From a virus (lineage: Duplodnaviria; Heunggongvirae; Uroviricota; Caudoviricetes): a stretch of 48,335 nt of DNA. Shown in pieces: positions 1 to 48,335 of the stretch. Below the pieces are notes generated by a model. It was not told the DNA's origin and did no database searches. It saw only the letters and a list, made by a program, of their open reading frames with translations. The stretch lies in IMG/VR virus record IMGVR_UViG_3300000292_000047; one strand, given 5' to 3'. Numbering within the stretch: the first letter of the stretch is position 1; every line of letters starts with the position of its first letter. The position numbers and the translations under genes were made by a program.

Positions 1-118
1 ATCAGATTTCTCCGGTTTAACCAGGGCGGGTATCGCTCGGTTTCGGGTATAACCTTAGGAAATTTTTTCCCACCTGTAAAGCGCTTTTTATATAAATCTA
101 TAATTATATAATTCTATG
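1..118. repeat. Copy A of ~105-bp conserved promoter/5'-leader repeat (minus-strand sense); first 54 bp identical to window end
   Basis: Near-identical to 7517-7640 and 16999-17108; contains ccggagaaatctgATG (SD + start) in minus sense and AT-rich tatataaatctataattatata block. Confidence 0.8.
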
Positions 119-701
119 CCACTTGCCAGAGAGCATCATGCAACTGGATACCTCCATTGCACTGGTTGCCCCAGCCATGCCAACCATCAGGTAAATCACC
201 GCGAGCAAACAGCTCAATACGAGGAACATCACCTAACAGCCTTACCAGCTTGTCACGAACCACATCAGGCTTCCGAGAATGCTCCAGACGAGGCGATGTA
301 AACGACTGAATGATCCCCGCATCAAGGCGGGTCGGCAATTTGCCTTTTACCGCAAACAAGCAATCTTCACTGTTTGCACGAGTCATATGCCCCATCCCCA
401 TCACCAGCTTATCTGGTTGTCGGCTACCACATTTGTTCCATGTGAAGCCCTTCATGGTCATAAGCCTGAATCCCCATGCTTTCACCACCAGCAACGCTTC
501 TTCTGGCTGAGTCGGAACCCACCACATGGCCAACAAACACGATTCAGGATTAGCAAGCTGCCAGACAGGAATACGAGCAATATCCTCAGCTTTCATCGTT
601 GGATACTTAAAACCAGCTCCACGATTCCCATCCTTACACTTATCTTTGTATTCCCAGGGGGGATCTGCATAAATCAGATTAAACAATGCAATTGCCTCCA
701 T
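114..701 (-). CDS. MT-A70 family DNA N6-adenine methyltransferase
   Basis: 195 aa; N-terminal DPPW motif (LIYADPPWEY); ATG at 699-701 checked, GGAGG upstream. Confidence 0.7.
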   Translation of the reverse strand: MEAIALFNLIYADPPWEYKDKCKDGNRGAGFKYPTMKAEDIARIPVWQLANPESCLLAMWWVPTQPEEALLVVKAWGFRLMTMKGFTWNKCGSRQPDKLVMGMGHMTRANSEDCLFAVKGKLPTRLDAGIIQSFTSPRLEHSRKPDVVRDKLVRLLGDVPRIELFARGDLPDGWHGWGNQCNGGIQLHDALWQVA

Positions 702-1008
702 GTTAGTTGTGCCTCCGGCGCTTATCTCCGGCAGTCATAACGCTGACCAGCTCTACAGCAGACACAACGAAAAGGGCACTAACCAGACTGATTAATGCCC
801 TTGCCTGTTGTGTGCCGGATATCGCCCGACAACGCTGTTTTGGTAACACGGCTACAGTTCCGTGCCGCTCCAGCTTTTACCCCTTTGCGGATAACAGGCC
901 CTGCCTGTAACTTAGCCCCACGTTCGCCCGAAATGCGCACCAGGCACGCATAAAGATGAGCACGAAGAAGTAACTCCACCGCGCTTATCTTTATGTGTGA
1001 GGGTGAAT

Positions 1009-1084
1009 TGGTGGCCCCTACCGGATTTGAACCGATGACCGTGCGATTATGAGTCGCCTGCTCTAACCACTAAGCTAAGGGGCC
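1009..1084 (-). tRNA. tRNA with CAT anticodon (Met or Ile2), CCA encoded
   Basis: Minus-strand reading GGCCCCT..CTCATAA..GGTTCAAATCC..AGGGGCCACCA; 7-bp acceptor stem, T-arm ATCGG/CCGGT, anticodon loop CTCATAA. Confidence 0.8.
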
Positions 1085-1253: not shown

Positions 1254-1463
1254 TTACTTTCGGCAGTTGATTTCCCATGCCCTGTTATGAGCCAGAATAT
1301 CTTTCTTTGTCTGGCGGTCCATAACATCGATGTCGTGATCAGTCAGGTAGATGGGCTTTACCCAATCACAGGCGGTATCAACCACCACCGGGACGCTTCC
1401 ACGACTCCCGCAGCTCGCGATCAACATCGTCATCAGCCATATGGTTAACACTCTGCTGTACAT
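1254..1463 (-). CDS. Rz1-like outer-membrane spanin lipoprotein (overlaps Rz-like gene)
   Basis: 69 aa; signal sequence with lipobox LIAS-C; overlaps 3' end of upstream ORF in another frame; last gene of lysis cassette. Confidence 0.5.
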   Translation of the reverse strand: MYSRVLTIWLMTMLIASCGSRGSVPVVVDTACDWVKPIYLTDHDIDVMDRQTKKDILAHNRAWEINCRK

Positions 1464-1656
1464 TCCCCGCCTCTTTTGTCACTTCTATACGCCGCTCCGC
1501 AGTGGCTTTTACGGCGGCTGCATTCTCATTAATGCGCTGCTTTTCAGCTTCATCTTCGGCCTTTTCTCGCCCCTTCATACGACCAAAACCAAACGCGCCG
1601 AATGCAACCAATATAATTGTGCCAATAAATGACAAAACGGCCTTCAAACCAGTCAT
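1378..1656 (-). CDS. Rz-like inner-membrane spanin
   Basis: 92 aa; N-terminal TM helix then charged coiled-coil-like region; ATGA start/stop overlap with endolysin. Confidence 0.55.
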   Translation of the reverse strand: MTGLKAVLSFIGTIILVAFGAFGFGRMKGREKAEDEAEKQRINENAAAVKATAERRIEVTKEAGNVQQSVNHMADDDVDRELRESWKRPGGG

Positions 1657-2195
1657 ACCACCACTCGCTCTTTCATCCAGCCGTAGACAAACGACTCATT
1701 CGCCTCGCGCTTCTCCGCCAACTCCAGATAGCGTTCGCCCTGCGTACAGTTCAGCGACGTCAGCATCACCCGTTCGCCGTCTTTTCCCCGATTCCCAAGA
1801 TAAGCACGCAGCGCATTAATGGTACGTGGACCGATTCGTCCATCTGCATCCAAATCGGGATACAGCTTCCCACGCAGATTGAACACATTCAGCCAGCGTT
1901 GAAGCATTTTGGACGCCACTGTTGGCCCCATATTCACACCGGTATCACACAGCTCTGCGGCAATATCAGAGGATAATGCGGCCACCTGATCAAAGCGTGG
2001 TCCGTACCAGTAATCAGCCTCAAGGATTTCTAGTGCCTGTTCGCGGGTTAAATCGCGCATATCGCCACGGTATCCATGAGCACGGGCAGTGTTCTGAGTA
2101 ATGCCCCACTTTGTTGGGCCTCCCTTGTCGTCAGGGTGATCCACATAGCCGCCCTCTTTTCCAAGAATGCTGTTAAAAATCTCATCTTTGGTCAT
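1653..2195 (-). CDS. Endolysin, GH108-type muramidase with peptidoglycan-binding domain
   Basis: 180 aa; EGGYVDHPDDKGGPTKWGIT motif typical of GH108 lysozymes. Confidence 0.8.
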   Translation of the reverse strand: MTKDEIFNSILGKEGGYVDHPDDKGGPTKWGITQNTARAHGYRGDMRDLTREQALEILEADYWYGPRFDQVAALSSDIAAELCDTGVNMGPTVASKMLQRWLNVFNLRGKLYPDLDADGRIGPRTINALRAYLGNRGKDGERVMLTSLNCTQGERYLELAEKREANESFVYGWMKERVVV

Positions 2196-2478
2196 GATTA
2201 AATCCTAATGCGTCAACTATCCGCGCCAGATTGCCCCTGAAATACAGAACAACGATGCAGATAATCAGATTTCCAATAACCACCAGCCAGTGGGATTCTT
2301 GATAAAGACCGAACACATAACGGAAGGGAACATTGGCGTATACAATGACGTAGATATAAGCCAGAAAGGAAACAAATGGACGATGCCTGGAGTCTTTCCG
2401 TCGATAAAGCATCAGCGCCATTACTATTACTGTGCAAAGCACCGCATTAATCAGTGCTGACGGGTCACTGCTTACCAT
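2182..2478 (-). CDS. Small multi-pass membrane protein, lysis-associated (holin/antiholin-like)
   Basis: Track start at 2514 is TTG; ATG at 2476-2478 has GGAGGGGG SD; about 3 hydrophobic helices. Confidence 0.45.
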   Translation of the reverse strand: MVSSDPSALINAVLCTVIVMALMLYRRKDSRHRPFVSFLAYIYVIVYANVPFRYVFGLYQESHWLVVIGNLIICIVVLYFRGNLARIVDALGFNHDQR

Positions 2479-2860
2479 TTGAACCCCCTCCACGTAAGCG
2501 GGAAAGTATTCCAAAGATGCTACCGAGATCCTGGCTGTTTACGAACGTGAGGATTTTAATTGTCAATGCAGCCACAATAACCGCACCAAGCGCATCAAGA
2601 GGTCGATCGTTGTAGCTGGTCCATTTGGCAAGAAATGAGCCAACTAACGGCGCTCCAATCACTCCAACAATGAACGATGTAAAGAAATAGCCAATCAGCT
2701 TGAGACGGCTAATATTCACCGCTGTAGCAACATAGAAAACAGCGCCAGCAAATGCCCCGAATACAACGCCGTAATCAATACCAGTTGCAATACCAAAAAC
2801 GCTGGCACCCATCAGGCCACCAGCAGCAACGGCCGTACCGGAAATTGGTTCTGCTGACAT
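2465..2860 (-). CDS. Holin-like membrane protein
   Basis: 131 aa; multiple Gly/Ala-rich TM helices; GAGGA SD; first gene of lysis cassette. Confidence 0.5.
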   Translation of the reverse strand: MSAEPISGTAVAAGGLMGASVFGIATGIDYGVVFGAFAGAVFYVATAVNISRLKLIGYFFTSFIVGVIGAPLVGSFLAKWTSYNDRPLDALGAVIVAALTIKILTFVNSQDLGSIFGILSRLRGGGSNGKQ

Positions 2861-2873: not shown

Positions 2874-2906
2874 AAAAAAAAAGCCCCGCCGAAAAAGGCA
2901 GGGCTT
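2874..2906 (-). terminator. Candidate intrinsic terminator (hairpin + U-run on minus strand)
   Basis: agccccgcc-gaaaaa-ggcagggct hairpin followed on minus strand by T-run (plus-strand A9). Confidence 0.5.
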
Positions 2907-3050
2907 CATAAAGCAACAAATTACGCGGTAATCGCTTAACGCAGTTTTACTACGTTAAATGAAACACTACACCCAGTTACCACCTAAAACAAGGTTTCCC
3001 CATAAAAAAACCTTCAAAATGTGGTTAATCGATCAATAAAAAAACAATAC

Positions 3051-4016: not shown

Positions 4017-4466
4017 TCACTCTCCTTTGATGCGAATGTTTACAGCCTGACAAGCCTCTTCGAGAACCCAGTCAACAGCGTCTTTCCATGCTCCGGTTTC
4101 GACTGGCGGATTTTCACGCTTAACCTGTTCATAGAAGCGCACTGCTTTAATCAATCCTTCTGGTATCAGTGGCACAGGCGGGGGAGTGAATAACGCCTGA
4201 ATTTCATAGCTCGGCCTGTCGTTGCAATCCTCTTTTGTCGGTACATATTTCCAGTCACCAACCCACGGCTCCCCCTGAGAGTCCGTAACGCCTTTTTTCA
4301 CGTAGCGATATCGCCACGCGACTGGCTCTGCTTCCAACGATGCCAGTGCGATACGAAACACATTGGCAAGCAGACTGCTTGAAGATTGGTTATCGTGCGC
4401 CGGGTCGCTCAGGAAGCCTGTGATGAATGATTTAATCTCCGCACGTTCTTTGGTAATAGTGGTCAT
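4017..4466 (-). CDS. Hypothetical protein, paralogous family member
   Basis: 149 aa; MTTITKERAEI, IALASLEAEPVAW motifs. Confidence 0.5.
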   Translation of the reverse strand: MTTITKERAEIKSFITGFLSDPAHDNQSSSSLLANVFRIALASLEAEPVAWRYRYVKKGVTDSQGEPWVGDWKYVPTKEDCNDRPSYEIQALFTPPPVPLIPEGLIKAVRFYEQVKRENPPVETGAWKDAVDWVLEEACQAVNIRIKGE

Positions 4467-6093: not shown

Positions 6094-6371
6094 GCCACAG
6101 CCCCTCTCAACGGCTTAACTTTGGCTAATAAGGTGTTAAACAACATGGAGTTAGGATTCATGCCAAATGGCAATTCCGGTTTAGCGGAGTAGTACAGGCA
6201 ACCATTTATTTTCCTGGTTGTTATCTGTCCTTCGGCAACCATGCTTCTCAGTCTGCAACGCATAGAGTTCTGCGACACACCAATGTGCTCCGCGATTACG
6301 TCCACTTTTGAACATGGGTGATCGGTCAGGAAATTAATCACATCTTGGGGGTTAATAATTTTGCGTTTCAT
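6090..6371 (-). CDS. Putative winged-helix DNA-binding protein
   Basis: 93 aa from ATG 6369-6371; HTH-like segment VDVIAEHIGVSQNSMRCRLRSMVAEGQI. Confidence 0.4.
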   Translation of the reverse strand: MKRKIINPQDVINFLTDHPCSKVDVIAEHIGVSQNSMRCRLRSMVAEGQITTRKINGCLYYSAKPELPFGMNPNSMLFNTLLAKVKPLRGAVA

Positions 6372-6416
6372 TGTCGAGGCGTCCTTATACATTTATATAA
6401 ATATATAATTCTATAT

Positions 6417-6438
6417 ACGGCGGGAGACATCCCGCCGT
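6417..6438 (-). terminator. Hairpin downstream of 6449-7516 gene (candidate terminator)
   Basis: acggcggga-gaca-tcccgccgt, 9-bp stem, followed on minus strand by AT-rich tract. Confidence 0.45.
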
Positions 6439-6448: not shown

Positions 6449-7516
6449 TCAGGCTTTCAATAGCGATTCTTTCAGATATCGGGCATCAGCCAGGGCGTTT
6501 GGCGTAATCTTGCGAACCCATGCATTACGGGTTGGACTCCACTTAAAGGCGCGTGATTTAAGCAGCGAACGAATGTTTGCCTCTGGTTTGCCAGGGAAAT
6601 AAAACAGGATGCGGTTATCCTCTGGATCTATCTCCATAGAAAAGCCGTCGTATTCTTCGCGCTGTGCTCCTGTTACAGACTTGACCGATTCAAGCTCCTT
6701 AATACGGCTCTGTAGTCGTTTGATTTCGGCGTTATTGTTGCTCAGTGCGTATGAAGGGAATCCGATGCGCCCACAGAAATCTCCGGCCAGTAACTCTTTG
6801 GCTTCGCTTTCTGTAAACCTGAGATCGATTAATGCAGAAAGCTGCTGTATTTGGTCTTTTTTGTATTTGCGAATGGCCTTATTTGCGGCCTTCATTTTGA
6901 CGTGTGACTTCATGCAGCCTTGCAGCTTACGAAGCAACTTAAATAGCGCATCAGGATCATCAGACGAAATTCCATTACGACCAACACCTGCGGCTTTGCT
7001 CTCGTAGTGTGATGCTTTACTTTCGCATTCAACAAACGCTTTTCTGAATAACGCATCAGCTTTAGACAAACGGCGGCGATGGCCTTTCGCGCTATAATGG
7101 TCAACTAAAATCGGCTGGCCTAACGGGATCACATCCAACAGGTCATGCGCTCGCTTATGCGCTACCGCACCTTCTTTTCTGGCTTTTTCTGCACGAGCAA
7201 TATATCGGGCAAGACGCGCGTTCTGGCGTTCCTGATAGGTGTTTACGTAATCATCTCCGCGCTGCTGCTGTTCAAGCCATGCTTTGCGCAGATCTTCTGT
7301 TACGTCCACCAGCTCCGCAGGGATACAACCAGTTTGGGCTTCATAAGAGTAACCATCCTCATAGATACGCCCATCGTCTTCAACAAAGAAAAAGGTTTCG
7401 TGCTCATCGCTTTTGACCATACGACCATTAACATGGCGTAATAGGTAGCCAGTATCAGTGCTTAACAGGCTGTTAGGGTTGTTGATCCAGTCAGAAATAA
7501 TTACTTGTTTATTCAT
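6449..7516 (-). CDS. Conserved hypothetical protein driven by leader copy B (possibly DUF3560-like)
   Basis: 355 aa from ATG 7514-7516 (MNKQVIISDW) immediately after leader SD ccggagaaatctg; family assignment from memory only. Confidence 0.55.
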   Translation of the reverse strand: MNKQVIISDWINNPNSLLSTDTGYLLRHVNGRMVKSDEHETFFFVEDDGRIYEDGYSYEAQTGCIPAELVDVTEDLRKAWLEQQQRGDDYVNTYQERQNARLARYIARAEKARKEGAVAHKRAHDLLDVIPLGQPILVDHYSAKGHRRRLSKADALFRKAFVECESKASHYESKAAGVGRNGISSDDPDALFKLLRKLQGCMKSHVKMKAANKAIRKYKKDQIQQLSALIDLRFTESEAKELLAGDFCGRIGFPSYALSNNNAEIKRLQSRIKELESVKSVTGAQREEYDGFSMEIDPEDNRILFYFPGKPEANIRSLLKSRAFKWSPTRNAWVRKITPNALADARYLKESLLKA

Positions 7517-7640
7517 CAGATTTCTCCGGTTTAACCAGGGCGGGTATCGCTCGGTTTCGGGTATAACCATAGGAAATTTTTTCCCACCTGTAAAGCACTT
7601 TTTATATAAATCTATAATTATATATTTATAGATTTTCGAT
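7517..7640. repeat. Copy B of ~105-bp promoter/5'-leader repeat
   Basis: Near-identical to 1-118 and 16999-17108. Confidence 0.85.
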
Positions 7641-7685: not shown

Positions 7686-8063
7686 TTACTCTCTTCGCTT
7701 TTTCAAATAGTCGACAACATACGCCCTGGCTTTTGCCAGCTTCCGGCGATACTGTCTGAGGCTAAGAGAAAGGGCGTGGGCTTTATCAATATGCGGTGCA
7801 TTTATGTCGAGGCCCCGAATCTCCCACGCCCCGTATTCAATTCGGACAACCAGCGCCGCAGTCTCATCAACTACCGTGAGGGCCGTCACCGCTCCCTCTA
7901 TACTGGTTTCCAGTGAGTCATTTGGTGCGCCGCCCCCTCCGGTAAACTGGCAGCGCGTAACCATCATCATTTCTAACATCGACGCGAAACCGCTACGGGC
8001 GTTGCAGCCATTGCGCACCCACAGCGCCCATAGCTCAAACAAGCTATCCAGATCGCGTCTCAC
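7686..8063 (-). CDS. Hypothetical protein; possible Q-like antiterminator (weak)
   Basis: 125 aa, GTG start; LFELWALW motif loosely resembles Q-family N-termini; sits immediately upstream of leader copy B. Confidence 0.3.
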   Translation of the reverse strand: MRRDLDSLFELWALWVRNGCNARSGFASMLEMMMVTRCQFTGGGGAPNDSLETSIEGAVTALTVVDETAALVVRIEYGAWEIRGLDINAPHIDKAHALSLSLRQYRRKLAKARAYVVDYLKKRRE

Positions 8064-8066: not shown

Positions 8067-8399
8067 TCAGATCTCCCGTATCGTGACGGGATAAAGCGCC
8101 TCTACCTGCTTTTTCTTCATGATGTAGACGTCTGTTCGCACACCTTTAGTGTCGACACAATCAATCGTCCCATCGTCATAAAACACCATGAAATCAAGTT
8201 TATAAACGACACCACCTGGCAGATGAAAAGGCACCTGCATAAGAAACGTCACAACGCGGCCAGCTTTTCTCAGTAGCTTCAGTTCGCAGTAGTAATCAGC
8301 CTCTTTTTTGCTATCAAAAGCGATATCATCGACAACCGTTTTTTTATTGCCGTATTTGCTTTTCCTGGTCGCTGGTTTGCGAAAGCCGGTATATCTCAT
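8067..8399 (-). CDS. DUF1064-like phage protein
   Basis: 110 aa; SKYGNKKTVVDDIAFDSKKEADYYCELKLL motif typical of this lambdoid nin-region family. Confidence 0.55.
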   Translation of the reverse strand: MRYTGFRKPATRKSKYGNKKTVVDDIAFDSKKEADYYCELKLLRKAGRVVTFLMQVPFHLPGGVVYKLDFMVFYDDGTIDCVDTKGVRTDVYIMKKKQVEALYPVTIREI

Positions 8400-8800
8400 T
8401 TGGTATCCCCTGGTACTTCACCAAGACTAAGATCAAACCCAATTTCGTCTTTAACTGACTGCGGCAACAGCTCCCACGTCTGCGCACACAAAAATTCATC
8501 TGTGCCATAACGCTCAACAAAGCGAGCACAATTACTCAGGGGAGGGTGACGAACGGCAATATGCGGAGGCACACGCCCACCACCAGGCACAACACCGCGA
8601 TGATGTGGTGCGCACAACCCAAAGCTATGGAAGTGGCAATTCTCATCAACGCTGCCGTAATCAGGATCGTGATGTAGCTCCGTCCACAGCTCTGGATTCT
8701 CAATTTCACGGCCATCAATAATGCAAGCTATGCAACCCACGTGAGTGAGCACCGCTTGTATATAAAGTTTCTCTTTCTTCGTTGGTGTACGTCCGTTCAT
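8396..8800 (-). CDS. Cys/His-rich putative zinc-binding protein
   Basis: 134 aa; CIACIIDG...ELHHDP...HFHSFGLCAPHHRG. Confidence 0.45.
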   Translation of the reverse strand: MNGRTPTKKEKLYIQAVLTHVGCIACIIDGREIENPELWTELHHDPDYGSVDENCHFHSFGLCAPHHRGVVPGGGRVPPHIAVRHPPLSNCARFVERYGTDEFLCAQTWELLPQSVKDEIGFDLSLGEVPGDTK

Positions 8801-9033
8801 CAGCGCCCCTTACCATTGATAAAGAGGTTGAACTCGTTGATTAACTGGACATACATGCTTCTGGCCGCGTAGTTCTTTGCCAGCTCTTTACGGGATGAGA
8901 TCCCGCAAAACTCACGCAGAATCACAGAGGCCTCAGAACTGTTTGAAACGTTCTTCCCTGTTTTACTGGTCAGAAAGCGCCAGAATTGGGGATTCTGGCA
9001 ATGCATCGCAGCACCGCGAACATAACTACTCAT
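8800..9033 (-). CDS. Hypothetical protein
   Basis: 77 aa, ATG verified, operon context. Confidence 0.4.
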   Translation of the reverse strand: MSSYVRGAAMHCQNPQFWRFLTSKTGKNVSNSSEASVILREFCGISSRKELAKNYAARSMYVQLINEFNLFINGKGR

Positions 9034-9545
9034 TGATGGCCCCCGTCATTTCTGGTGCTTTTCACCGTGCGGCTTCTTAAAAACCTGCCATCACGAACAA
9101 CAGACACTTCTCGTTTACCCAACCTCATTTCACGGCGGTAACATTCAGAAAATGCCTCGTCCGGCATCATATAAATGCGACGCTTCGCCTCCGTATCCAG
9201 AAGGGAACGGCTTGGGGTTACATATAAGAACGACTCATCAATAGGGACAAAACCACGAGCAAGAATTGCTGGCAGAATACCAGGAAGAACGCAGAAAACA
9301 GCTCCACGATGCAGCAACATCTGGTACTCCATGACCTCCGTAATCCCCGTAACGACTGTTACGGTGTCACGTCTGTTACGGCTGGCAACCAGTCGCTGCA
9401 CACCTCCAATTTTCTGCTCTACAGATAGACGTTTGCTATCGTTATCAATATGATCGATAACAAATCCTTTAATCGTTTGATCAAGGTAGTGCACCACCTG
9501 CGATTGAATCTGGTGATTATCACCAAAGAAGGCCAGAATCATCAT
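9030..9545 (-). CDS. Hypothetical protein
   Basis: 171 aa, ATG verified, ATGA coupling with upstream gene. Confidence 0.45.
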   Translation of the reverse strand: MMILAFFGDNHQIQSQVVHYLDQTIKGFVIDHIDNDSKRLSVEQKIGGVQRLVASRNRRDTVTVVTGITEVMEYQMLLHRGAVFCVLPGILPAILARGFVPIDESFLYVTPSRSLLDTEAKRRIYMMPDEAFSECYRREMRLGKREVSVVRDGRFLRSRTVKSTRNDGGHQ

Positions 9546-10036
9546 TCCTCAAGCCTCCCAAGTGCTGAACGCCGGGCGTTGCTAATCTCCTTATGAATCA
9601 GCTCGATATCGCTGGAATCTTTATTCTTAAGCTCCAGCACGGTAATCGCATCACGAACCTCTGAAACGGTTACGTGTGAGTGTTTCCAGCGAGCAATGAA
9701 TCGCGGACCGCGTAGATTGCAACGCTCCGCAGGCATCCCCAGCTCAGAGAAAACCGCTTTCAGCCTTGATAAGCAGTTAACAGGGAGATTCCCTTTGATC
9801 TTGTTCTGCCGAACCGATGTGCCATCGCTACGCTGGCGCTGACGTTCGGCAAAATCTGCCGCCCATTGCTGGACGTTAATCCGGCCTTCCGAATACGCCA
9901 CCAGCAGCGTCAGGTTATCCGCACGAGGGAATCTCTCGAAGCGATACCAGGCACCAATCAGTGATGACGTAAAGCCAAACTTTCTGGCAACACCAATTTG
10001 GCCTCCATTTTCGTCAACCCACTCCTGAAAGGTCAT
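9542..10036 (-). CDS. Putative early regulator (first gene divergent from repressor; Cro/CII position)
   Basis: 164 aa; ATG 10034-10036 with GGAG SD; N-terminal HTH-like GVARKFGFTSSLIGAW. Confidence 0.35.
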   Translation of the reverse strand: MTFQEWVDENGGQIGVARKFGFTSSLIGAWYRFERFPRADNLTLLVAYSEGRINVQQWAADFAERQRQRSDGTSVRQNKIKGNLPVNCLSRLKAVFSELGMPAERCNLRGPRFIARWKHSHVTVSEVRDAITVLELKNKDSSDIELIHKEISNARRSALGRLEE

Positions 10037-10209: not shown

Positions 10210-10866
10210 ATGAAAAGCAACGACGAGAACATCAAGAAAGAAATAGGTCTGCGCATTCAGACTCTACGGAAACAATCCGGCATGACTGCCGGAGATCTCC
10301 AGCAAGTCACTGGAATAGGCTTAAGCACCTTGCAGAACTATGAGGCCGGATTAAGACAACCATCTATACCTGCCATCAAGAAAATCGCGCACGCCCTGAA
10401 AGCATCAGCGCCTTATATCGCGTGCTTAACAGATAACCCGTTCCCACCCCAGAATACTAACGCTCCTGTTATTCCTGGGCTTGTAGCTATAAAAAATGAC
10501 ATAGCATCGCACGCCGGAGAAAAGCCAGTGCTGGCGATAGAACAGGAGATTCTACGAAGCAAGAACATCAACCCATCGTCTCTGTCAGTTCTCCAGAGCA
10601 ACGATGAGTTAATGTCACCAACAATATCCCCTGGCTCCCAAGTCCTGATTAATACAGACGATACAGAGATTCATGAGGGGATCTATGCCCTTGAAGACAG
10701 AAATGGCCTGGTTGTTTTGAGGCACTGTAGAGTCATACCGGGTGACAATGCTGTTATGCTGTCAACCGAAAGGGATGCTGAAATGAACACTAAGCATCTG
10801 AATAACGAGGAATTTAAGCGTTATAAAGTTCTTGGCCGCGTAGTTAGTGTTGTCAACTGGTTATGA
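10210..10866 (+). CDS. CI-type phage repressor (XRE HTH + S24 LexA-like peptidase domain)
   Basis: 218 aa; N-terminal HTH (LQQVTGIGLSTLQNYEAG), C-terminal S24-like region; divergent from early operon. Confidence 0.75.
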   Translation: MKSNDENIKKEIGLRIQTLRKQSGMTAGDLQQVTGIGLSTLQNYEAGLRQPSIPAIKKIAHALKASAPYIACLTDNPFPPQNTNAPVIPGLVAIKNDIASHAGEKPVLAIEQEILRSKNINPSSLSVLQSNDELMSPTISPGSQVLINTDDTEIHEGIYALEDRNGLVVLRHCRVIPGDNAVMLSTERDAEMNTKHLNNEEFKRYKVLGRVVSVVNWL

Positions 10867-11333: not shown

Positions 11334-11360
11334 CTGAAAGCGGGCTAACGCCCGCTTACA

Positions 11361-11460
11361 TGATTATAGATTTATATAATTATATAAAACGCTTTTCATC
11401 CGCCAAAAAGTTGGTTATGCTTACCTCGTTCTATAAATATAGATTTATAGAATTATATAA
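11361..11460. promoter_or_regulatory. AT-rich repeat block upstream of parA (candidate centromere/operator)
   Basis: ttatagatttatataattatataa and ctataaatatagatttatagaattatataa; same motif as in leader repeats. Confidence 0.55.
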
Positions 11461-11483
11461 CCAAACACATGGAGTCTCGACAA

Positions 11484-12137
11484 ATGACTATCTCTGTAGG
11501 TATTTTCAACGGAAAAGGCGGCGTAACCAAATCAACAATTGCCCGTGCTTTAGCAGTTGCTTATGCAAAGGCCGGCTGGAATGTATGCCTGATCGATATG
11601 GATGTGCTTAACGGAACGGTAACGCGTTGGGTACAACGCAGAATGGCCAACAATATCGAACCTGCAATCGCGGCGCAGCCGTGCGGCACGCCATCACAAG
11701 TCCAGAAAATCATCGAATCAGAAGTATACGACCTGGTTATCGTCGATGGCGGTGCCTACGCATCTGAATCAGTACCGAAGCTCTCTGAATTTCTGGATAT
11801 GGTTATTTTGCCAACCAGATTCTCTACCGATGACCTAGAAACCACCGTTAACACAGCTCACGGCATCGTTAAAAAGGGTGTGCCAATCAAGAAAATTTGC
11901 ATGGTGTTCTCAGGCGCGGCTGAAAACGAAGCCGACTACATTGAAGCCCAAGAGTACCTAGCTAATACGCCATACTTTGTTGTCGATAAGTACATTCCCC
12001 ACAAGCCAGCTCTGAGCAAAGCTCAGGATAAGGGCTTAAGCCTCATTGAATGCTCATACGTTGCGCCACGCAAAAAGGCAGACGACGTTATTCAGGGGAT
12101 TATCAACCAGCTTGAGGCTCTGACTACTGCCGCGTAA
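11484..12137 (+). CDS. parA: ParA/ParF-type partition ATPase (alternative ATG at 11469)
   Basis: Deviant Walker A GKGGVTKST; MinD/ParA fold; GGAG SD before ATG 11484. Confidence 0.8.
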   Translation: MTISVGIFNGKGGVTKSTIARALAVAYAKAGWNVCLIDMDVLNGTVTRWVQRRMANNIEPAIAAQPCGTPSQVQKIIESEVYDLVIVDGGAYASESVPKLSEFLDMVILPTRFSTDDLETTVNTAHGIVKKGVPIKKICMVFSGAAENEADYIEAQEYLANTPYFVVDKYIPHKPALSKAQDKGLSLIECSYVAPRKKADDVIQGIINQLEALTTAA

Positions 12138-12180: not shown

Positions 12181-12429
12181 ATGGCCGGACCATCAAAACC
12201 ACCAAAGAAGAACAGCAAAGGCGTACCGCCATCGATCGAACAACCGCAGGTTTTCGACCCGACTGAAACGCCAACCAGAACCAAATCAGGTGGGGCACAA
12301 ATGGCGTTTAACGTCGACCCTGAATTTAAACGCGAGTACAAAACGTTCGCCAGCTCAATGGATATGTCATTGAAAGAAGTGCTGACAAAATCTTTTGAGT
12401 TACTCAAGGCTCAATACAACCAGAAGTAA
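12181..12429 (+). CDS. ParG-like ribbon-helix-helix centromere-binding protein
   Basis: 82 aa immediately after ParA; basic unstructured N-terminus then predicted beta-strand/helix segment; AGAGGGG SD. Confidence 0.55.
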   Translation: MAGPSKPPKKNSKGVPPSIEQPQVFDPTETPTRTKSGGAQMAFNVDPEFKREYKTFASSMDMSLKEVLTKSFELLKAQYNQK

Positions 12430-12650: not shown

Positions 12651-12674
12651 TAAAAAAGGCCCCCGAAGGGGCCT
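12651..12674. terminator. Hairpin terminator, usable on minus strand (bidirectional candidate)
   Basis: aggcccc-cgaa-ggggcct perfect stem; A-run on plus gives U-run on minus. Confidence 0.6.
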
Positions 12675-12679
12675 AATCG

Positions 12680-12802
12680 CTACTTGCTGCTAATGTTTAT
12701 CGTCACATTCAGAGCGTTATCAGTAATCTTCCAACCCTCCCCATGTGGCGTAAACAAAGCCCCAGTAACAACGATAAAAATACACATACAGTATTTTTTC
12801 AT
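12680..12802 (-). CDS. Small hydrophobic peptide (40 aa), candidate type I toxin-like or exported peptide
   Basis: MKKYCMCIFIVVTGALFTPHGEGWKITDNALNVTINISSK; ATG inside track ORF 12680-12862; terminator immediately downstream. Confidence 0.3.
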   Translation of the reverse strand: MKKYCMCIFIVVTGALFTPHGEGWKITDNALNVTINISSK

Positions 12803-13200
12803 TGTATGGCCCTTACAGGCCGTTTCACGGCATCCCCACCGACGAAAACAACGCGAGAGCAAGCACGGCTGCTTGTGCTTGCATGTACGGCAACGGAGAA
12901 TCCTCCCCTAAAGTCGGTGCCCGGGTGCGAATCGGCGGGAAGGTCCACAGGTATTTTACGATTATTTTAAGATTAGTAATAGGAAAGAAATTAAACGAAA
13001 AAACTCGTTTATTTTCACAAAATCAGTAACCTACCCACAATCTGTGAGTTTGCAGGCACAACAAGAATCACAATTTTTTGAAGCATAATAGTGGACTATT
13101 ATTACCTTTTGGGTAAAATTAACTTGCTGCTTGTGCTTGCGTGGTTGTTTATACAACGACGTTATGCTGAAAGGACCGCGAATCCGATCAGCACGAAAGA

Positions 13201-13309: not shown

Positions 13310-13392
13310 CACTTTCCGAGCCGTAGCAAAATCTACGGTCGGGATTGGAACCCCGTAGACACAATGGCGCATACCGCGTTAGCGGTTTTTTT
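13310..13392 (+). ncRNA. Candidate small structured RNA ending at intrinsic terminator, upstream of antirepressor operon
   Basis: TTGACA at 13285-13290; hairpins ccgtag/ctacgg; terminator accgc-gtta-gcggt + T7 (13373-13392); no ORF. Confidence 0.3.
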
Positions 13393-13558
13393 ATGCGTAA
13401 AGCACTGCTACACCCAAATTATGGTGGGGCGTGCGGGGGAGTCGTAAGACTCGCCGGTTCGTCATTGTGTCCGGTAGTTCCAACCCTGCACGTCTCACCA
13501 CCCAATGATTGGAACCTGACGGTGGTGAGTATCCTTAACCTTTAAGGGAATCATCACA

Positions 13559-13750
13559 ATGACAAACCTACCCCATGACTATTACGTCAACCTCGTAAAG
13601 ATCCTTCTCAAGAAAGCCTCATACGCCGATAAATTCCGCCTGGCTGAAATCATCGAGCGCGAAGCTATGCGCATCGCCAGCAACGATAACGCTGTTTCTG
13701 ACGCAAAAATCTCCCTCGTAACCAAAGTTGTTATGGGAGGTGCAAAATGA
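13559..13750 (+). CDS. Small protein translationally coupled to antirepressor
   Basis: 63 aa; stop overlaps ant start (ATGA). Confidence 0.45.
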   Translation: MTNLPHDYYVNLVKILLKKASYADKFRLAEIIEREAMRIASNDNAVSDAKISLVTKVVMGGAK

Positions 13751-14898
13751 AAACGCTTCCGATCGTTAACACCCTACAGCCTATCCTGCATAATCAGATT
13801 CCAGTAATCACAACTGAGCTACTCGCCCGCCTTTATGGAACAGAAGCAATCCGTATACAGCAAAATCACCATGAAAATAAAACTCGGTTCATTGAGGGGA
13901 AGCACTTCTTTAAAGCTGTTGGTGATGAACTCAAAAATTTGCGACTAGTTTTAAACGAGTCACAAAATGAGGTGCAAATTTCCCCCAAAACTCGCTCTCT
14001 CATCCTCTGGACAGAACGCGGGGCTGCACGTCACGCCAAAATGCTTGAAACTAACCAAGCGTGGGATGTGTTCGAACGGCTGGAAGACTGCTATTTCAAC
14101 CAGAACGCGCAAACGGCCGCGACCGTTACCGTCTCGCCAAACAATCCTCGTGAGGTTGTCGATACGCTCAACGCCAAACCGATGTTTTACATTAAGGTGT
14201 GCAACAACGAGCCACTCACAACCTCAGCCGATGTTGCCCAGGCATTCAGCACCACAAACAATTCCATCGTTATGGCCATCGATGCGTTACGCATTCCTCG
14301 TACAGCTGCGGCACGTCATTTCTTTAAAGAGCAACGACCGCTGGAAGGAAGCGACCGCGAAATAACAATCTATCGCATGACAAAAGACGGATTTACCTTG
14401 CTCATGGAAAGTATCGACGGTCCAGGCGTGAAAGATATCAAGCTGGCCTACATTGAAGCCTTTAACGCTATCAGCAGCGTGTTAAAAACACAGTACGAGC
14501 GTGATCTGGCTAAACGACTGTACCAGGAAAAAACGATTATCCGCGCGGCAACAGAGCATAATCGGCTATTAACAGAACCGAAATACAGGAAGGAACTAAT
14601 CAAGGAGTTTGACAAGGCAACAGGGAAAACCAAAGCGGCGCTAAATCTGCCAGCAATGACTCAGGAAAATGTGATATCAGCCTTACTTCTTGATCTGCTC
14701 AGAAACGCCAGAGCACTTATCAGCTTTGACGAAAACCTGAATCCTCAGCTCAAGCTACTACCACCGACAGGCAAAGTAGTCGACCAGGCTGATCACAACA
14801 GCATACTCAGCGTACTGGATGCAAACCTGCCAGCCAGGACACTACAGGATCTGATAAAAACATGTGCTGATAAGCTGGCACAGAAGAGCAGACCATAA
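13747..14898 (+). CDS. Antirepressor-type regulatory protein (ORF6N-like N-terminus + Rha domain)
   Basis: 383 aa; ITIYRMTKDGFTLLMESIDGPGVKDIKLAYIEAFN matches Rha pattern; GGAGG SD. Confidence 0.7.
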   Translation: MKTLPIVNTLQPILHNQIPVITTELLARLYGTEAIRIQQNHHENKTRFIEGKHFFKAVGDELKNLRLVLNESQNEVQISPKTRSLILWTERGAARHAKMLETNQAWDVFERLEDCYFNQNAQTAATVTVSPNNPREVVDTLNAKPMFYIKVCNNEPLTTSADVAQAFSTTNNSIVMAIDALRIPRTAAARHFFKEQRPLEGSDREITIYRMTKDGFTLLMESIDGPGVKDIKLAYIEAFNAISSVLKTQYERDLAKRLYQEKTIIRAATEHNRLLTEPKYRKELIKEFDKATGKTKAALNLPAMTQENVISALLLDLLRNARALISFDENLNPQLKLLPPTGKVVDQADHNSILSVLDANLPARTLQDLIKTCADKLAQKSRP

Positions 14899-16610: not shown

Positions 16611-16991
16611 TTACTTAACGAGGAATAAAAATGGTTTATCGTTCGGCGGTGTAATCGGGGCTGGCTCGCTTTTGCTCATGCGATCAGTGTACCAGGCCAA
16701 CTCCTTGTCAAAGTAAGCCTGATTAAAATAGGCCATGAATGTGGTTTCAAATCCATAACGACCGCTAATACGCAGCATCTGATTGCCGTTCTCTGTTTCC
16801 AGATATACCTGGGCACGTTCCTGATTCTCCTTCAGCCAGGTTAAAGCCTCATCGCACGAGGACAAACGATACTCATCATCGTAGCCGTCATCGATGCGGC
16901 TTGAAGAAGAACGGCAAATCACGCCAACAGAACCAGCCAGGATAGTTTGAATTTTAAGGAAAGCGTTTTTGCGGATTTTAATCATGCTCAT
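16611..16991 (-). CDS. Hypothetical protein driven by leader copy C
   Basis: 126 aa; ATG 16989-16991 directly after leader. Confidence 0.55.
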   Translation of the reverse strand: MSMIKIRKNAFLKIQTILAGSVGVICRSSSSRIDDGYDDEYRLSSCDEALTWLKENQERAQVYLETENGNQMLRISGRYGFETTFMAYFNQAYFDKELAWYTDRMSKSEPAPITPPNDKPFLFLVK

Positions 16992-16998
16992 CGGGTTA

Positions 16999-17108
16999 TC
17001 TCCGGTTTAACCAGGGCGAGTATCGCTCGGTTTCGGGCATAACCTTAGGAAATTTTTTCCCACCTGTAAAGCACTTTTTATATAAATCTATAATTATATA
17101 ATTCTATG
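16999..17108. repeat. Copy C of ~105-bp promoter/5'-leader repeat
   Basis: 3 substitutions relative to copy A; SD-proximal end diverged. Confidence 0.85.
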
Positions 17109-17112
17109 ATCA

Positions 17113-17140
17113 CAAAAAAGCCCCTTTGCAACAGGGGCTT
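17113..17140 (-). terminator. Intrinsic terminator of higBA operon
   Basis: Minus strand: aagcccct-gttgcaaa-ggggctt + T6. Confidence 0.65.
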
Positions 17141-28832: not shown

Positions 28833-29040
28833 TATTGCGTCTCCACGGAGGAAAATTGTTTACTGATATTGGCATAACCGGAGCATCAGGAACTTTAAGA
28901 ATAATTCCCGCAGAAAAAAGCACCGTAAAGCGGTGCTCAGTATTAGCATCAATAAGAAGATAAGACAGGTACTCATTACCATACAACTTTAAAGCGATAC
29001 TATCCCATGAGTCCCCTTGAACCGTTCTATAATCATCCAA
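28822..29040 (-). CDS. Tail protein X-like (LysM-like)
   Basis: 72 aa; DSWDSIALKLYGNEYLSYLLIDAN LysM-like. Confidence 0.55.
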   Translation of the reverse strand: MDDYRTVQGDSWDSIALKLYGNEYLSYLLIDANTEHRFTVLFSAGIILKVPDAPVMPISVNNFPPWRRNSVT

Positions 29041-41979: not shown

Positions 41980-42531
41980 TTATTCTTCCTGCTTAATAAA
42001 TCGGGATTCCTGGAGCGCCTGAAGCGCAAAATTAATCTCGTCTTCAATAATGCGCTCGATCTCCCTGGCTGTTTTGCCTTCACAACGGGGAGCTGCTCTT
42101 GGAGCAATACTAAATAAGCGGCTACGCAATTCATTAGCTGCCAGAAATGCATCATCCCTGACCGCATCTTTAGCGATGAGAGAGCCTTCCTTTTCTTCAA
42201 ATTCAAGGCGTTTCAGCTTTGCCTGATAAATTTTTTCTGCGGTCTTAGCCTTGTTGAATTGCACCGCAACACCGGAAGTACCACCAGCTAATCCGGCATC
42301 ATCAGCGGGTAACTCTGGTTGTTCCGAAGATATCCCATGCCCTCTTTTTCCATTTTCAGCAGATACCTCACGACCAACCTGTCGGCTCGCTTCATAAGCC
42401 GCACTGGCTTTATCAAAATCCAGCTTGCCGCTTTTCAGCACTGGAATGCGACCGGAACGACAGAGCTTCGTAACCATTGCCGGAGAAATACCTTTCCGGC
42501 GGGCAAACTCTGACTTACTGACGATGGCCAT
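41980..42531 (-). CDS. Terminase small subunit (HTH)
   Basis: Track start TTG; ATG at 42529-42531; N-terminal HTH SKSEFARRKGISPAMVTKL. Confidence 0.55.
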   Translation of the reverse strand: MAIVSKSEFARRKGISPAMVTKLCRSGRIPVLKSGKLDFDKASAAYEASRQVGREVSAENGKRGHGISSEQPELPADDAGLAGGTSGVAVQFNKAKTAEKIYQAKLKRLEFEEKEGSLIAKDAVRDDAFLAANELRSRLFSIAPRAAPRCEGKTAREIERIIEDEINFALQALQESRFIKQEE

Positions 42532-47056: not shown

Positions 47057-47103
47057 AACATCACCTGAAAATAAAAGCCCCGCGACACGCGAGGCTGTAA
47101 GAG

Positions 47104-47742: not shown

Positions 47743-47816
47743 CCCATGTTCTCCTTTGTCTGGATGTAAAAAAGCCCCGGCAATTGCCGAGGCTCGTTGT
47801 TCGTTATCGTTACGGT

Positions 47817-48014: not shown

Positions 48015-48283
48015 CACTCATCATCTCCTGCCGCACATACAACCTCACAAAAAAAATCAGCAGAATGTTTCTCCTTGAACGAATGACGCTCAAAACCGCA
48101 CTCAATATCAGGCGCAAAAACATCCACCACATACGGTCTTTCAGAATGTTTGTTTTCCCAACGATAAACCGTAGTGACGTTGAAATGTTTTAACGCTTCA
48201 CGGAACTCAACGCTGCCCGTCAGGTTTTTTGAGGTCAGGTATTGCAGGAGGTTTTTTACTACTTCACGGTCTTGTACTTTCAT
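48014..48283 (-). CDS. Hypothetical protein, first gene behind leader copy A/D
   Basis: 89 aa; ATG 48281-48283 directly after ccggagaaatctg. Confidence 0.5.
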   Translation of the reverse strand: MKVQDREVVKNLLQYLTSKNLTGSVEFREALKHFNVTTVYRWENKHSERPYVVDVFAPDIECGFERHSFKEKHSADFFCEVVCAAGDDE

Positions 48284-48335
48284 CAGATTTCTCCGGTTTA
48301 ACCAGGGCGGGTATCGCTCGGTTTCGGGTATAACC
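48282..48335. repeat. Copy D of leader repeat, identical to window positions 1-54
   Basis: 54/54 identity with window start. Confidence 0.9.

What the first reader, a model, noticed from the sequence alone, without database searches (positions are those of the whole stretch)
7686..8063. Possible Q-like antiterminator placed directly upstream of a leader copy
The 125-aa product has an N-terminal L-E-L-W-x-x-W pattern loosely like Q-family antiterminators and is the last gene before leader copy B. If it is an antiterminator, the leader copies could be its target promoters. Similarity is weak and remembered, not computed.
Basis: inference. Interest (0 to 1): 0.35.

Follow-up and report, generated by a model that had tools for sequence, protein, structure and literature searches.

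The report
Divergent Q-type phage antiterminator gene
This 125-codon gene of a plasmid-like temperate phage encodes a distant, so far unannotated relative of the phage 21 Q protein, and it most likely lets RNA polymerase read through the terminators in front of the phage's lysis and particle genes; it is a useful annotation rather than a new principle.

Summary
The ORF is real: 7686-8063, minus strand, 125 aa, GTG start. It is the last gene of the early-right operon, and leader copy B starts about 50 nt downstream. Direct Pfam and PHROG scans give no function. A profile of 111 relatives matches the solved phage 21 Q antiterminator (E=3e-5). hhalign against six annotated Q proteins of the Q21/933W/QuuD type gives 94% probability (E=1e-7) over residues 2-79. 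That stretch covers the W-x-x-W helix, which contacts RNA polymerase in Q21, and the segment aligned with Q21's torus-forming region. Both AlphaFold models have six helices, and Q21 chains rank first in Foldseek, though not significantly. The three leader copies share a sigma-70-like promoter, TTTACA-17-TA(T/A)GGT. Strong intrinsic terminators lie directly in front of the holin genes and in front of the packaging and structural genes, with no promoter after them. A terminator before the lysis genes recurs in relatives from Pseudomonas and Vibrio. Antitermination itself, and loading at the leader copies, are inferred. No Q-binding element or sigma-dependent pause element could be identified. 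I class it as a new, unannotated member of a known kind.

The parts
7686..8063 (-). Q-like gene, 125 aa, GTG start. Predicted helices are H1 5-17 (ELWxxW), H2 29-36, H3 51-65, H4 67-77, H5 91-97 and H6 102-124, with H5-H6 forming a helix-turn-helix.
7504..7633 (-). Leader copy B: AT-rich 8-bp-period array 7633-7600; -35 TTTACA 7594-7589; 17-nt spacer GGTGGGAAAAAATTTCC; -10 TATGGT 7571-7566; conserved initial transcribed region 7561-7524; GGAG 7527-7524; ATG 7516 of the DUF3560 gene.
1..119 (-). Leader copy A: array 119-86, -35 at 80-75, -10 TAAGGT at 57-52, transcribed part 47-10. Bases 1-54 repeat 48282-48335, the overlap left by a circular assembly.
48281..48335 (-). End of leader copy A and the ATG (48283-48281) of the first gene of the late transcription unit.
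16980..17109 (-). Leader copy C: -35 at 17070-17065, -10 at 17047-17042. It is placed right after terminator 17140-17118 and drives a 126-aa gene of unknown function (16991-16611).
2880..2907 (-). Strong intrinsic terminator (11-bp stem, -20 kcal/mol, T9 tail). It lies 4.66 kb downstream of the leader B promoter and about 20 nt before the holin start, with no promoter in between.
1378..2860 (-). Lysis cassette: holin, holin, endolysin, Rz-like spanin.
772..802 (-). Terminator-like hairpin (14 bp, -17.9 kcal/mol, weak T tail) between tRNA-Met and the DNA methyltransferase gene.
47772..47795 (-). Strong intrinsic terminator (-18.2 kcal/mol) about 540 nt downstream of the leader A promoter and 30 nt before the next gene start.
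47076..47096 (-). Second intrinsic terminator (-14.7 kcal/mol) about 1.24 kb downstream of the leader A promoter and 20 nt before the next gene start. The ParB-like, packaging and structural genes follow.
28918..28938 (-). Internal terminator of the late unit, downstream of the 930-aa ORF (29033-31825).
17118..17140 (-). Terminator at the end of the long late transcription unit.
8067..10036 (-). The rest of the early-right operon that ends with the Q-like gene: a 164-aa, a 171-aa and a 77-aa gene, a Ref-like RecA-dependent nuclease and DUF1064.
10210..10866 (+). Divergently transcribed cI/LexA-type repressor (HTH_3 plus Peptidase_S24).

Best explanation
The gene encodes a small DNA-binding protein of the Q21/Q933W/QuuD (Pfam PF06530) antiterminator superfamily, from a divergent clade that nobody has annotated. 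It is made last from the early-right operon once the cI-type repressor is removed. It then most likely binds RNA polymerase that has just started at a phage promoter and travels with it. Helix 1 (ELWxxW) would dock on the beta' dock. The flexible stretch at residues 18-50 would form a ring in the RNA exit channel, as in Q21. The polymerase then ignores the intrinsic terminators that sit directly in front of the lysis, packaging and structural genes. The most likely loading sites are the three identical promoter/leader cassettes. What is shown is the homology, the fold class, the gene position, the promoter copies and the terminators. What is inferred is the antitermination activity, the loading site and the loading mechanism.
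For: Homology. The family profile (111 sequences) against all PDB sequences finds Q21 (6JNX/6P18) at E=3e-5, with profile positions 5-92 on Q21 residues 12-95; every other hit has E>=0.29. hhalign of the family against six annotated Q proteins gives 94.2% probability and E=1.1e-7, with residues 2-79 aligned to Q21 13-90. PF06530 gives sub-threshold hits in 10 of 111 relatives. One relative aligns to positions 5-111 of the 118-position model at 21.9 bits, against a cut-off of 26. W12, W15 and V16 align with Q21 W23, W26 and V27; W26 and V27 contact the beta' dock in the Q21 complex (PMC6606751).

Fold. Both AF2 models (pLDDT 77 and 88) have six helices like Q21. The H1-H3 connection is the low-confidence part, which fits Q21's mobile torus segment (10.1101/651190). 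Q21 chains take ranks 1-5 and 7-10 in Foldseek against the PDB, followed by sigma region 4.

Position. It is the last gene of the early operon, after recombination-nuclease genes, which is where Q sits in lambdoid phages. A promoter follows it directly.

Need for antitermination. Terminators of -15 to -20 kcal/mol lie 20-30 nt before the starts of the holin gene and of the genes that lead into the packaging and structural region, with no promoter after them. A terminator immediately before the lysis genes recurs in relatives whose Q-like protein is 63%, 38% and 39% identical.

Precedent. Other remote Q21-fold proteins, such as BrrG of the Bartonella GTA, have been shown to be antiterminators (10.1101/2024.11.20.624540).
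Against: The protein itself has no Pfam hit at E<=0.1. The shallow profile of close relatives gives only 23% in hhalign and no Q21 hit in the PDB. The Foldseek E-values are not significant (0.3-1, TM about 0.5). The homology covers the N-terminal two thirds only. The C-terminal part is an ordinary short-turn helix-turn-helix, not the helix-turn[loop]-helix of Q21. The leader cassettes contain no terminator; the nearest ones are 0.54 kb (copy A) and 4.66 kb (copy B) downstream. Copy C drives a single gene with no internal terminator found. I found no direct-repeat Q-binding element between -35 and -10. I found only a poor -10-like element (GATA(C/G)T, in 3 of 5 cassette variants) in the transcribed leader. 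A sigma-70-like match on its own is no more than chance gives (20 found, 25 expected). No experiment on this family exists in the searched literature.
Confidence: 0.6

Rival explanations
1. The protein is a Q-type antiterminator but does not load at the three leader cassettes. It would load at another promoter, for example a weak promoter-like site (TTGTTT-17-TAGTGT, about 2998-2964) in the 190-nt gap just upstream of terminator 2907-2880, giving a classical PR'-tR'-lysis layout. On this reading the leader cassettes are ordinary strong promoters controlled by whatever protein binds the AT-rich arrays.
For: In the P. aeruginosa and Vibrio relatives a conserved promoter-like block lies 60-90 nt upstream of the terminator that precedes the lysis genes, which is a lambdoid PR'-tR' layout. 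The 9-mer AGGTGG(G/T)AA from the leader spacer occurs once more in the window, inside this pre-lysis gap. Relatives with a 50-65% identical protein have no leader cassette within 4 kb.
Against: The pre-lysis site is a poor promoter (3 of 6 matches in each hexamer) and the promoter scan did not report it. A 9-mer match with one mismatch is expected by chance about once in three such comparisons. The two regions otherwise do not align. This model leaves the two terminators behind leader A unexplained.
Confidence: 0.2
2. The protein is a sigma-region-4-like transcription activator, or a substitute for sigma region 4. It would switch on the leader promoters, or promoters embedded in the AT-rich arrays, by binding promoter DNA and the beta flap. 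It would not modify elongation.
For: The C-terminal half is a sigma-R4-type helix-turn-helix. Relatives give weak hits to Sigma70_ECF and Sigma70_r4_2, to sigma R4 structures, and to BFVD entries labelled sigma70 or RNA polymerase. GafA, with a similar fold, was first read as a sigma-like activator. The leader cassettes have no terminator of their own.
Against: The conserved and statistically matched part is the N-terminal H1-H4 region, which is specific to Q21-type proteins and absent from sigma factors and LuxR-type activators. There is no sigma region 2. The leader promoter already has a 5/6 -35 element, a 17-nt spacer and a usable -10, so it does not look activator-dependent. An activator would not explain how polymerase passes strong terminators placed 20-30 nt before gene starts.
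Confidence: 0.13
3. The protein has another role unrelated to late-gene control, for example a repressor, an anti-sigma-like inhibitor of the host polymerase, or a partition or operator protein that binds the AT-rich arrays.
For: All databases call it hypothetical. AT-rich arrays with an 8-bp period, the same period as the Q21 binding site, flank the leader promoters.
Against: The putative recognition helix (SLRTYRRxLAxAR) is almost constant across lineages, while the arrays have completely different sequences there: AT-rich in enterics and AGCGAAWW in Pseudomonas. The arrays also sit upstream of parA, which points to the partition protein instead. The specific match to Q21 argues against an unrelated role.
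Confidence: 0.05

Closest known systems
Q21, the late antiterminator of phage 21 (PDB 6JNX/6JNY, 6P18-6P1C; Pfam PF06530)
   Same: It is the only significant solved-structure match by sequence profile. The six-helix layout is shared. The W-x-x-W helix 1 that contacts the beta' dock is shared, and so is a flexible H1-H3 connection corresponding to the torus segment. The C-terminal half is sigma-R4-like in both. The gene is last in the delayed-early operon, next to recombination-nuclease genes, with a promoter directly downstream.
   Different: Identity is about 16-22%, and the protein fails the Pfam threshold. It is 125 aa against 162 aa. It has a short-turn HTH with an extra loop before H5, instead of the HT[loop]H. 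It has no TGAGCA-type direct repeats between -35 and -10, no clear -10-like pause element, and no terminator within 50 nt of the start site as in PR'21. It has three candidate target promoters instead of one.
Q of Stx phage 933W type and QuuD/DLP12-type Q (about 127-144 aa; also PF06530)
   Same: The size is similar. The N-terminal motif is the same (MRDIxxVLExWGAW against MRRDLDSLFELWALW). The HTH has an uninterrupted short turn, with xxLxKAExxIxxxL against RKLAKARAYVVDYL.
   Different: These proteins pass the Pfam model and this one does not. This one has a roughly 14-residue insertion between H4 and H5, and a G-rich loop (GGGG) in the H2-H3 linker.
PA0613 family (NCBIfam NF051483), a gene beside the R/F-pyocin lysis and structural genes of P. 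aeruginosa
   Same: The match is weak but full-length: E=2.5e-4, residues 1-123 on model positions 1-117 of 119. Of 111 relatives, 58 match, the best at 6.7e-9. The size is the same. A review describes PA0612-PA0613 as regulatory genes adjacent to the pyocin lysis gene PA0614 (PMC11871291).
   Different: The score is far below the equivalog cut-off (21 bits against 100), so the protein is a relative and not a member. No function is published for PA0613 in the searched library. I could not retrieve the locus to inspect it.
BrrG (Bartonella GTA) and GafA/GafZ (alphaproteobacterial GTAs)
   Same: These are remote Q21-fold proteins recognised by structure rather than sequence. According to the preprint, BrrG binds near a strong constitutive promoter and allows read-through of terminators, including a synthetic one.
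   Different: They come from a different host group and are larger. No sequence relation was tested here.
Q-lambda (PF03589) and AlpA of P. aeruginosa
   Same: They are functional analogues. Each binds promoter DNA, loads on early-paused polymerase and gives processive antitermination of lysis and late genes.
   Different: They have unrelated sequence and fold. AlpA appears only at rank 27 in Foldseek, with probability 0.14.

Membership tests
Pfam PF06530 (Phage_antitermQ; Q21/Q933W/QuuD type) | The protein scores above the curated gathering threshold of the family model. | tested here: not met
   There is no hit at E<=0.1 for the window protein. Ten of 111 relatives give sub-threshold hits, best E=1e-4. 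The relative in L029 scores 21.9 bits against a cut-off of 26, over model positions 5-111 of 118.
Q21 superfamily (remote homology) | There is a significant profile-level match to Q21 and to annotated Q proteins. | tested here: met
   hmmsearch of profile A3 against PDB sequences finds Q21 at E=3e-5, and the next hit is at 0.29. hhalign of A3 against A5 gives 94.2% probability, E=1.1e-7, over 78 columns. The shallow profile A1 alone gives only 23%.
Q21 superfamily | Helix 1 carries the conserved W-G/A-x-W-V motif that contacts the beta' dock (Q21 W26, V27). | tested here: met
   W12, W15 and V16 align with Q21 W23, W26 and V27. W12 and W15 are at least 90% conserved in 111 relatives. The contact itself is taken from PMC6606751 and was not tested for this protein.
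Q21 superfamily | The fold has six helices: H1 packed on a sigma-R4-like H3-H6 bundle, and a mobile H1-H2-H3 segment able to form the exit-channel torus. | tested here: inconclusive
   The AF2 models show six helices, with low confidence only in residues 18-50. Q21 chains are the top Foldseek hits, but at E=0.3-1 and TM about 0.5. Torus formation cannot be tested by these tools.
Q21 (narrow sense) | The DNA-binding motif is a helix-turn[loop]-helix with a long loop that reads the minor groove. | tested here: not met
   H5 (91-97) and H6 (102-124) are joined by a 4-residue turn. The long loop (78-90) lies before H5. The profile match stops at residue 79. In this respect the protein resembles the 933W/QuuD subtype.
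Q-dependent antitermination system | The gene is last in the delayed-early operon, with a constitutive-looking promoter directly downstream. | tested here: met
   the same order holds in relatives; compare Q in SfI, ev207 and ArgO145.
Q-dependent antitermination system | Intrinsic terminator(s) lie between the target promoter and the late (lysis and structural) genes. | tested here: met
   Terminators are at 2907-2880, 47795-47772 and 47096-47076 (-15 to -20 kcal/mol), each 20-30 nt before a gene start. A terminator before the lysis genes is conserved in L028, L031 and L032. They are 0.5-4.7 kb from the promoter, not within about 200 nt as in lambda and phage 21.
Q-dependent antitermination system | A Q-binding element lies in the promoter, and a -10-like sigma-dependent pause element lies in the initial transcribed region. 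| tested here: inconclusive
   The spacer holds a conserved GGAAA-N3-TTTCC inverted repeat but no direct repeats. The only -10-like element is GATA(C/G)T, in 3 of 5 cassette variants, and it reads GATACC in copies A and B. Footprinting is needed.
Q-dependent antitermination system | The protein causes terminator read-through and binds RNA polymerase. | not testable with these tools
   This needs reporter assays or in vitro transcription.
NCBIfam NF051483 (PA0613 family, equivalog) | The protein scores above the curated cut-off of 100 bits. | tested here: not met
   It scores 21.3 bits at E=2.5e-4, although the alignment is full-length. It is related but not a member.
Sigma-70/ECF sigma factors | Region 2 (-10 recognition and core binding) is present together with region 4. 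| tested here: not met
   Only region-4-like similarity is found, in the C-terminal 75 residues. The protein is 125 aa and has no region-2 match.

The most novel reading that the evidence does not exclude
The protein founds an unrecognised clade of Q21-like antiterminators (PHROG 5285, with the PA0613 family as a relative). The clade would be the late switch of a widespread lineage of 36-52 kb phage-plasmids in Escherichia, Salmonella, Vibrio, Pseudomonas and others. In this phage it would load at three dispersed, identical promoter cassettes without a recognisable sigma-dependent pause element, which would be a loading mode different from lambda, 21 and 82. By extension, PA0613 would be the missing antiterminator that couples PrtN induction to expression of the 30-kb R/F-pyocin cluster of P. 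aeruginosa.
Probability: 0.2. Interest if true: 0.6.

Novelty: new member of a known kind. Interest (0 to 1): 0.38.

Why it matters
It gives a testable function to a protein family that is 'hypothetical' in every source consulted. That includes PHROG 5285, three phage records, 80 plasmid records in PLSDB (57 from Escherichia) and about 130 clusters at 50% identity. It also explains how a common E. coli phage-plasmid can express lysis and particle genes that lie behind strong terminators. The three identical promoter cassettes offer a compact system for asking how a Q21-type protein is recruited when the classical binding and pause elements are not evident. The weak but full-length link to the PA0613 family suggests a concrete experiment on pyocin regulation. 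None of this changes the known principle of Q-type antitermination.

Tried and rejected
1. Direct scans of the single protein led nowhere. Pfam gave nothing, PHROGs gave only an 'unknown function' family, and NCBIfam gave only a weak PA0613_fam hit.
2. The shallow profile of close relatives (A1) was too weak. Against the PDB it found only a Tc3 transposase HTH at E=0.19, and hhalign gave 23%. The deep profile from the representative search was needed.
3. The word-indexed homologue search with the Q21 fragment returned mostly frameshifted fragments, so alignment A4 was discarded. Annotated Q genes from phage records were used instead.
4. Searching again with A3 for named relatives found no named protein.
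5. I considered the AT-rich 8-bp-period arrays as the Q-binding element, because the period equals that of the Q21 site. I rejected this as the leading idea. The arrays also lie upstream of parA, and they differ completely between lineages while the protein's recognition helix stays the same.
6. The 9-mer AGGTGG(G/T)AA, shared by the leader spacers and the pre-lysis gap, is kept only as a lead. Chance expectation is about 0.4 matches, and the regions otherwise do not align.
7. The search for a sigma-dependent pause element in the leader found only GATA(C/G)T, in 3 of 5 cassette variants.
8. The leader RNA forms only a small hairpin (-9.9 kcal/mol, z=-2.5) and no terminator, and Rfam has no match there.
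9. I tried to fetch the PA0613 locus.
10. Literature searches for PA0613, pyocin or tailocin antitermination, and the vB_YpM phages found nothing on this protein.

Full report
WHAT IS THERE. The window is a circular phage genome of 48,281 bp; its two ends overlap by 54 nt. It is 99% identical to Yersinia phages vB_YpM_41, 44 and 39, in which every gene is annotated 'hypothetical protein'. The same element occurs as a 46-52 kb non-mobilizable plasmid in many E. coli strains. There are 80 plasmid records with a relative of the protein, 57 of them from Escherichia, and all are annotated hypothetical. The ORF named in the finding exists exactly as described: 7686..8063 on the minus strand, 125 aa, GTG start, with a GGGAG 9 nt upstream. 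It closes an operon that starts next to a divergent cI/LexA-type repressor gene (10210-10866). The operon runs through three unknown genes, a Ref-like RecA-dependent nuclease gene and a DUF1064 gene.

THE LEADER COPIES. Three copies of a unit of about 130 nt lie on the minus strand at 7633-7504, at 17109-16980, and at 119-1 continuing into 48335-48282. Each unit has five parts. First comes an AT-rich array with an 8-bp period. Then comes TTTACA, then a 17-nt spacer GGTGGGAAAAAATTTCC, then TA(T/A)GGT. Last is a leader of about 42 nt that is nearly identical in all copies and ends in GGAG and the start codon of three unrelated genes. Phages whose Q-like protein is 89-92% identical carry a diverged cassette. 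That cassette keeps the -35, the GGAAA-N3-TTTCC inverted repeat of the spacer, the -10 and the transcribed segment GAAACCGAGCGATA..CGCCCTGGTTAAACCGGAG. The 7 nt around the expected start site vary. A sigma-70-like match alone is not above chance (20 found, 25 expected), so the evidence for a promoter is the threefold conservation. The leader RNA forms only a small hairpin, has no terminator and has no Rfam match.

WHAT THE PROTEIN IS. Scanned alone, the protein has no Pfam match. It belongs to PHROG 5285 ('unknown function'). It gives a weak but full-length match to NCBIfam PA0613_fam (E=2.5e-4, 21 bits against a cut-off of 100). An exhaustive profile search found about 130 clusters of 110-150-aa relatives. 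A profile of 111 of them matches one solved structure significantly, the phage 21 antiterminator Q21 (E=3e-5; the next hit is at 0.29). I built an independent alignment of six annotated Q proteins from phage records: the 21/SfI type, a Vibrio phage, the QuuD-like ev207, the 933W-like ArgO145, APSE-3 and a Pasteurella phage. hhalign of the two alignments gives 94.2% probability and E=1.1e-7 over residues 2-79. Ten of the 111 relatives touch Pfam PF06530 below threshold. One of them aligns to nearly the whole model at 21.9 bits, against a cut-off of 26. Yin et al. assign Q21 and Q933W to PF06530 (10.1101/651190).

The matched region contains helix 1 with W12, W15 and V16, which align with Q21 W23, W26 and V27. 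In the cryo-EM structure W26 and V27 touch the beta' dock (PMC6606751). The matched region also contains the segment that in Q21 rearranges into the ring in the RNA exit channel. In both AlphaFold models that segment (about residues 18-50) is the only low-confidence part. The models have six helices, as Q21 has. Q21 chains take the first ranks in Foldseek, followed by sigma region 4. This mirrors the published description of Q21 as a sigma-R4-like fold. However, the E-values (0.3-1) are not significant on their own.

The C-terminal third is an ordinary helix-turn-helix with a short turn. It is closer to the 933W/QuuD subtype than to the helix-turn[loop]-helix of Q21, and it lies outside the statistically supported alignment.

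WHY AN ANTITERMINATOR IS NEEDED HERE. From the leader B promoter, transcription runs through 4.66 kb of accessory genes. It then meets a strong terminator at 2907-2880 (-20 kcal/mol, T9 tail) that ends about 20 nt before the first holin gene. Holin, holin, endolysin and spanin follow. From the leader A promoter it meets terminators at 47795-47772 (-18 kcal/mol, after about 540 nt) and 47096-47076 (after about 1.24 kb). Each of these ends 20-30 nt before the next start codon. The ParB-like, packaging and structural genes follow. No promoter fits between these terminators and the genes behind them, so those genes can be expressed only by read-through. A terminator placed immediately before the lysis genes is also present in a related enteric element (63% identical protein), in a P. 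aeruginosa plasmid (38%) and in a Vibrio plasmid (39%). In the latter two, a conserved promoter-like block lies 60-90 nt upstream of that terminator, which is the classical PR'-tR'-lysis arrangement. In all of these elements the Q-like gene sits in the early-right operon, between the repressor region and the lysis and packaging genes.

MECHANISM, AND WHAT IS NOT SHOWN. The best reading is Q21-type processive antitermination. The protein would be made last from the early operon, load on polymerase that has just initiated, and carry it through the terminators. Four things are shown: homology to Q21 over the polymerase-contacting two thirds, the fold class, the gene position, and the layout of promoters and terminators. 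Three things are inferred: the activity, the loading at the leader cassettes, and the way of loading.

The cassettes differ from PR' of phage 21, which I read from phage SfI (TTGACA, two TGAGCA repeats 8 bp apart, a weak -10, a -10-like TAAGCT just after the start site, and a terminator within about 50 nt). The cassettes have no direct repeats in the spacer. Their only -10-like element is the poor GATA(C/G)T (GATACC in copies A and B). They have no nearby terminator. Copy C drives a single gene of unknown function.

Two alternatives therefore remain open. In the first, the protein loads elsewhere, for instance at a weak promoter-like site in the 190-nt gap before terminator 2907-2880. That site happens to share the 9-mer AGGTGG(G/T)AA with the leader spacers, but a match of this kind is expected by chance about once in three tries, and the regions otherwise do not align. 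In the second, the protein is a sigma-R4-like activator. This fits the C-terminal domain. It does not fit the Q-specific N-terminal match, the reasonable -35 of the promoter, or the terminators.

THE AT-RICH ARRAYS. Their 8-bp period equals that of the Q21 binding site, which made them tempting as Q-binding elements. But arrays with the same period also lie directly upstream of a ParA-type gene (11469-12137). That gene is followed by an 82-aa ORF that reads like a ParG/omega-type protein; this is my reading, with no Pfam hit. The same double placement recurs in relatives with entirely different repeat units: AAGATATA in L028 and AGCGAAWW in the Pseudomonas plasmid. Meanwhile the putative recognition helix of the Q-like protein is nearly invariant. 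The arrays therefore more likely belong to the partition or operator protein. That raises the separate possibility that the plasmid-maintenance system also holds the late promoters down.

COMPARISON AND NOVELTY. The protein works like, and is a remote homologue of, the Q21/Q933W/QuuD antiterminators. It fails the Pfam and NCBIfam membership thresholds and lacks the Q21-specific loop in the HTH. So it is best filed as a new, unannotated member (a sister clade) of a known kind, not as a member of PF06530 in the strict sense. Other remote Q21-fold proteins, such as BrrG, have recently been shown to be antiterminators, so the inference follows an established pattern. I found no paper on this family or on PA0613 function. 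The link to PA0613, which lies beside the lysis and structural genes of the R/F-pyocin cluster, is a lead worth testing but rests on weak scores.

VERDICT. The function and the target sites still need experiments. Interest is moderate.

Noticed in passing
window 86-119, 1221-1262, 6383-6424, 7600-7633, 11354-11387, 11427-11460, 17076-17109; L028 3023-3125, 6331-6363, 14901-14925; L031 1487-1581, 6080-6100: AT-rich arrays of 8-bp units lie just upstream of the -35 of all three leader promoters. They also lie directly upstream of a ParA-type ATPase gene, of a MarR-like gene and of the tRNA. Relatives keep the same placements with unrelated repeat units (AAGATATA; AGCGAAWW). They look like centromere or operator sites of a type Ib partition protein that may also control the late promoters.
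   Followed up: partly
window 11469-12137 (+) and 12181-12429 (+): A ParA-type ATPase gene (Pfam CbiA/ParA/MipZ) is followed by an 82-aa ORF with a disordered N-terminus and a C-terminus that reads like a ribbon-helix-helix (ParG/omega-like). The ORF has no Pfam hit. Related contigs also carry Rep3 or IncFII RepA genes, so this lineage is a phage-plasmid.
   Followed up: partly
window 13320-13392 (+), 13417-13505 (+), 13559-13750 (+), 13747-14898 (+): There are Rfam matches to the isrK sRNA and the C4 antisense RNA. A 63-aa ORF and an ORF6N/pRha antirepressor gene follow. This is a P1/P7 immI-like (and Gifsy-1 isrK-anrP-like) antirepressor switch that probably sits upstream of the cascade leading to the Q-like gene.
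   Followed up: no
window 12652-12948 (-): There is a full-length Rfam match to ryfA RNA (141.8 bits), with its own terminator at 12674-12657, between the partition genes and the immI-like module.
   Followed up: no
window 1-54 and 48282-48335: The first and last 54 bases are identical, so the window is a circular assembly of 48,281 bp opened inside leader copy A.
   Followed up: yes
L031 8030-8100 and L032 9160-9235: The P. aeruginosa and Vibrio phage-plasmids share a conserved non-coding block of about 70 nt: TTGTAA-17-TAATCT/TACCTT, then GCCAT(C/T)GTGGTGTT(C/G)GTGT. It lies 60-90 nt upstream of the terminator that precedes their lysis genes. It is a good candidate for the Q-dependent late promoter in those lineages.
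   Followed up: partly
window 2964-2998 (-): The 9-mer AGGTGGTAA (2985-2977, one mismatch from the leader spacer AGGTGGGAA) lies inside a weak promoter-like site, TTGTTT-17-TAGTGT, about 60 nt upstream of terminator 2907-2880. It is conserved in vB_YpM_41. Statistically it is only a lead.
   Followed up: partly
window 42531-43121, 44415-45794, 45788-46411 (-): Three paralogous ParB-like nuclease or N-terminal ParB-domain genes lie at the head of the late region, just behind the two terminators. A DNA methyltransferase gene (114-701) lies directly upstream of leader A.
   Followed up: no
window 6369-6379 (-), 11447-11471 (+); L013-L015 and L020 about 4414-4428: A conserved translation-start context, (G)A(G/C)NC(C/T)TCGACAA(A)TG, follows AT-rich arrays at several unrelated genes in this phage and in its relatives. 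It is a second kind of shared 'leader', distinct from the three long copies.
   Followed up: no
window 1012-1084 (-): A tRNA gene (annotated tRNA-Met in the relative vB_YpM_41) lies between the lysis cassette and the methyltransferase gene. This matches the tRNAs found downstream of Q in 21- and 933W-type phages.
   Followed up: no
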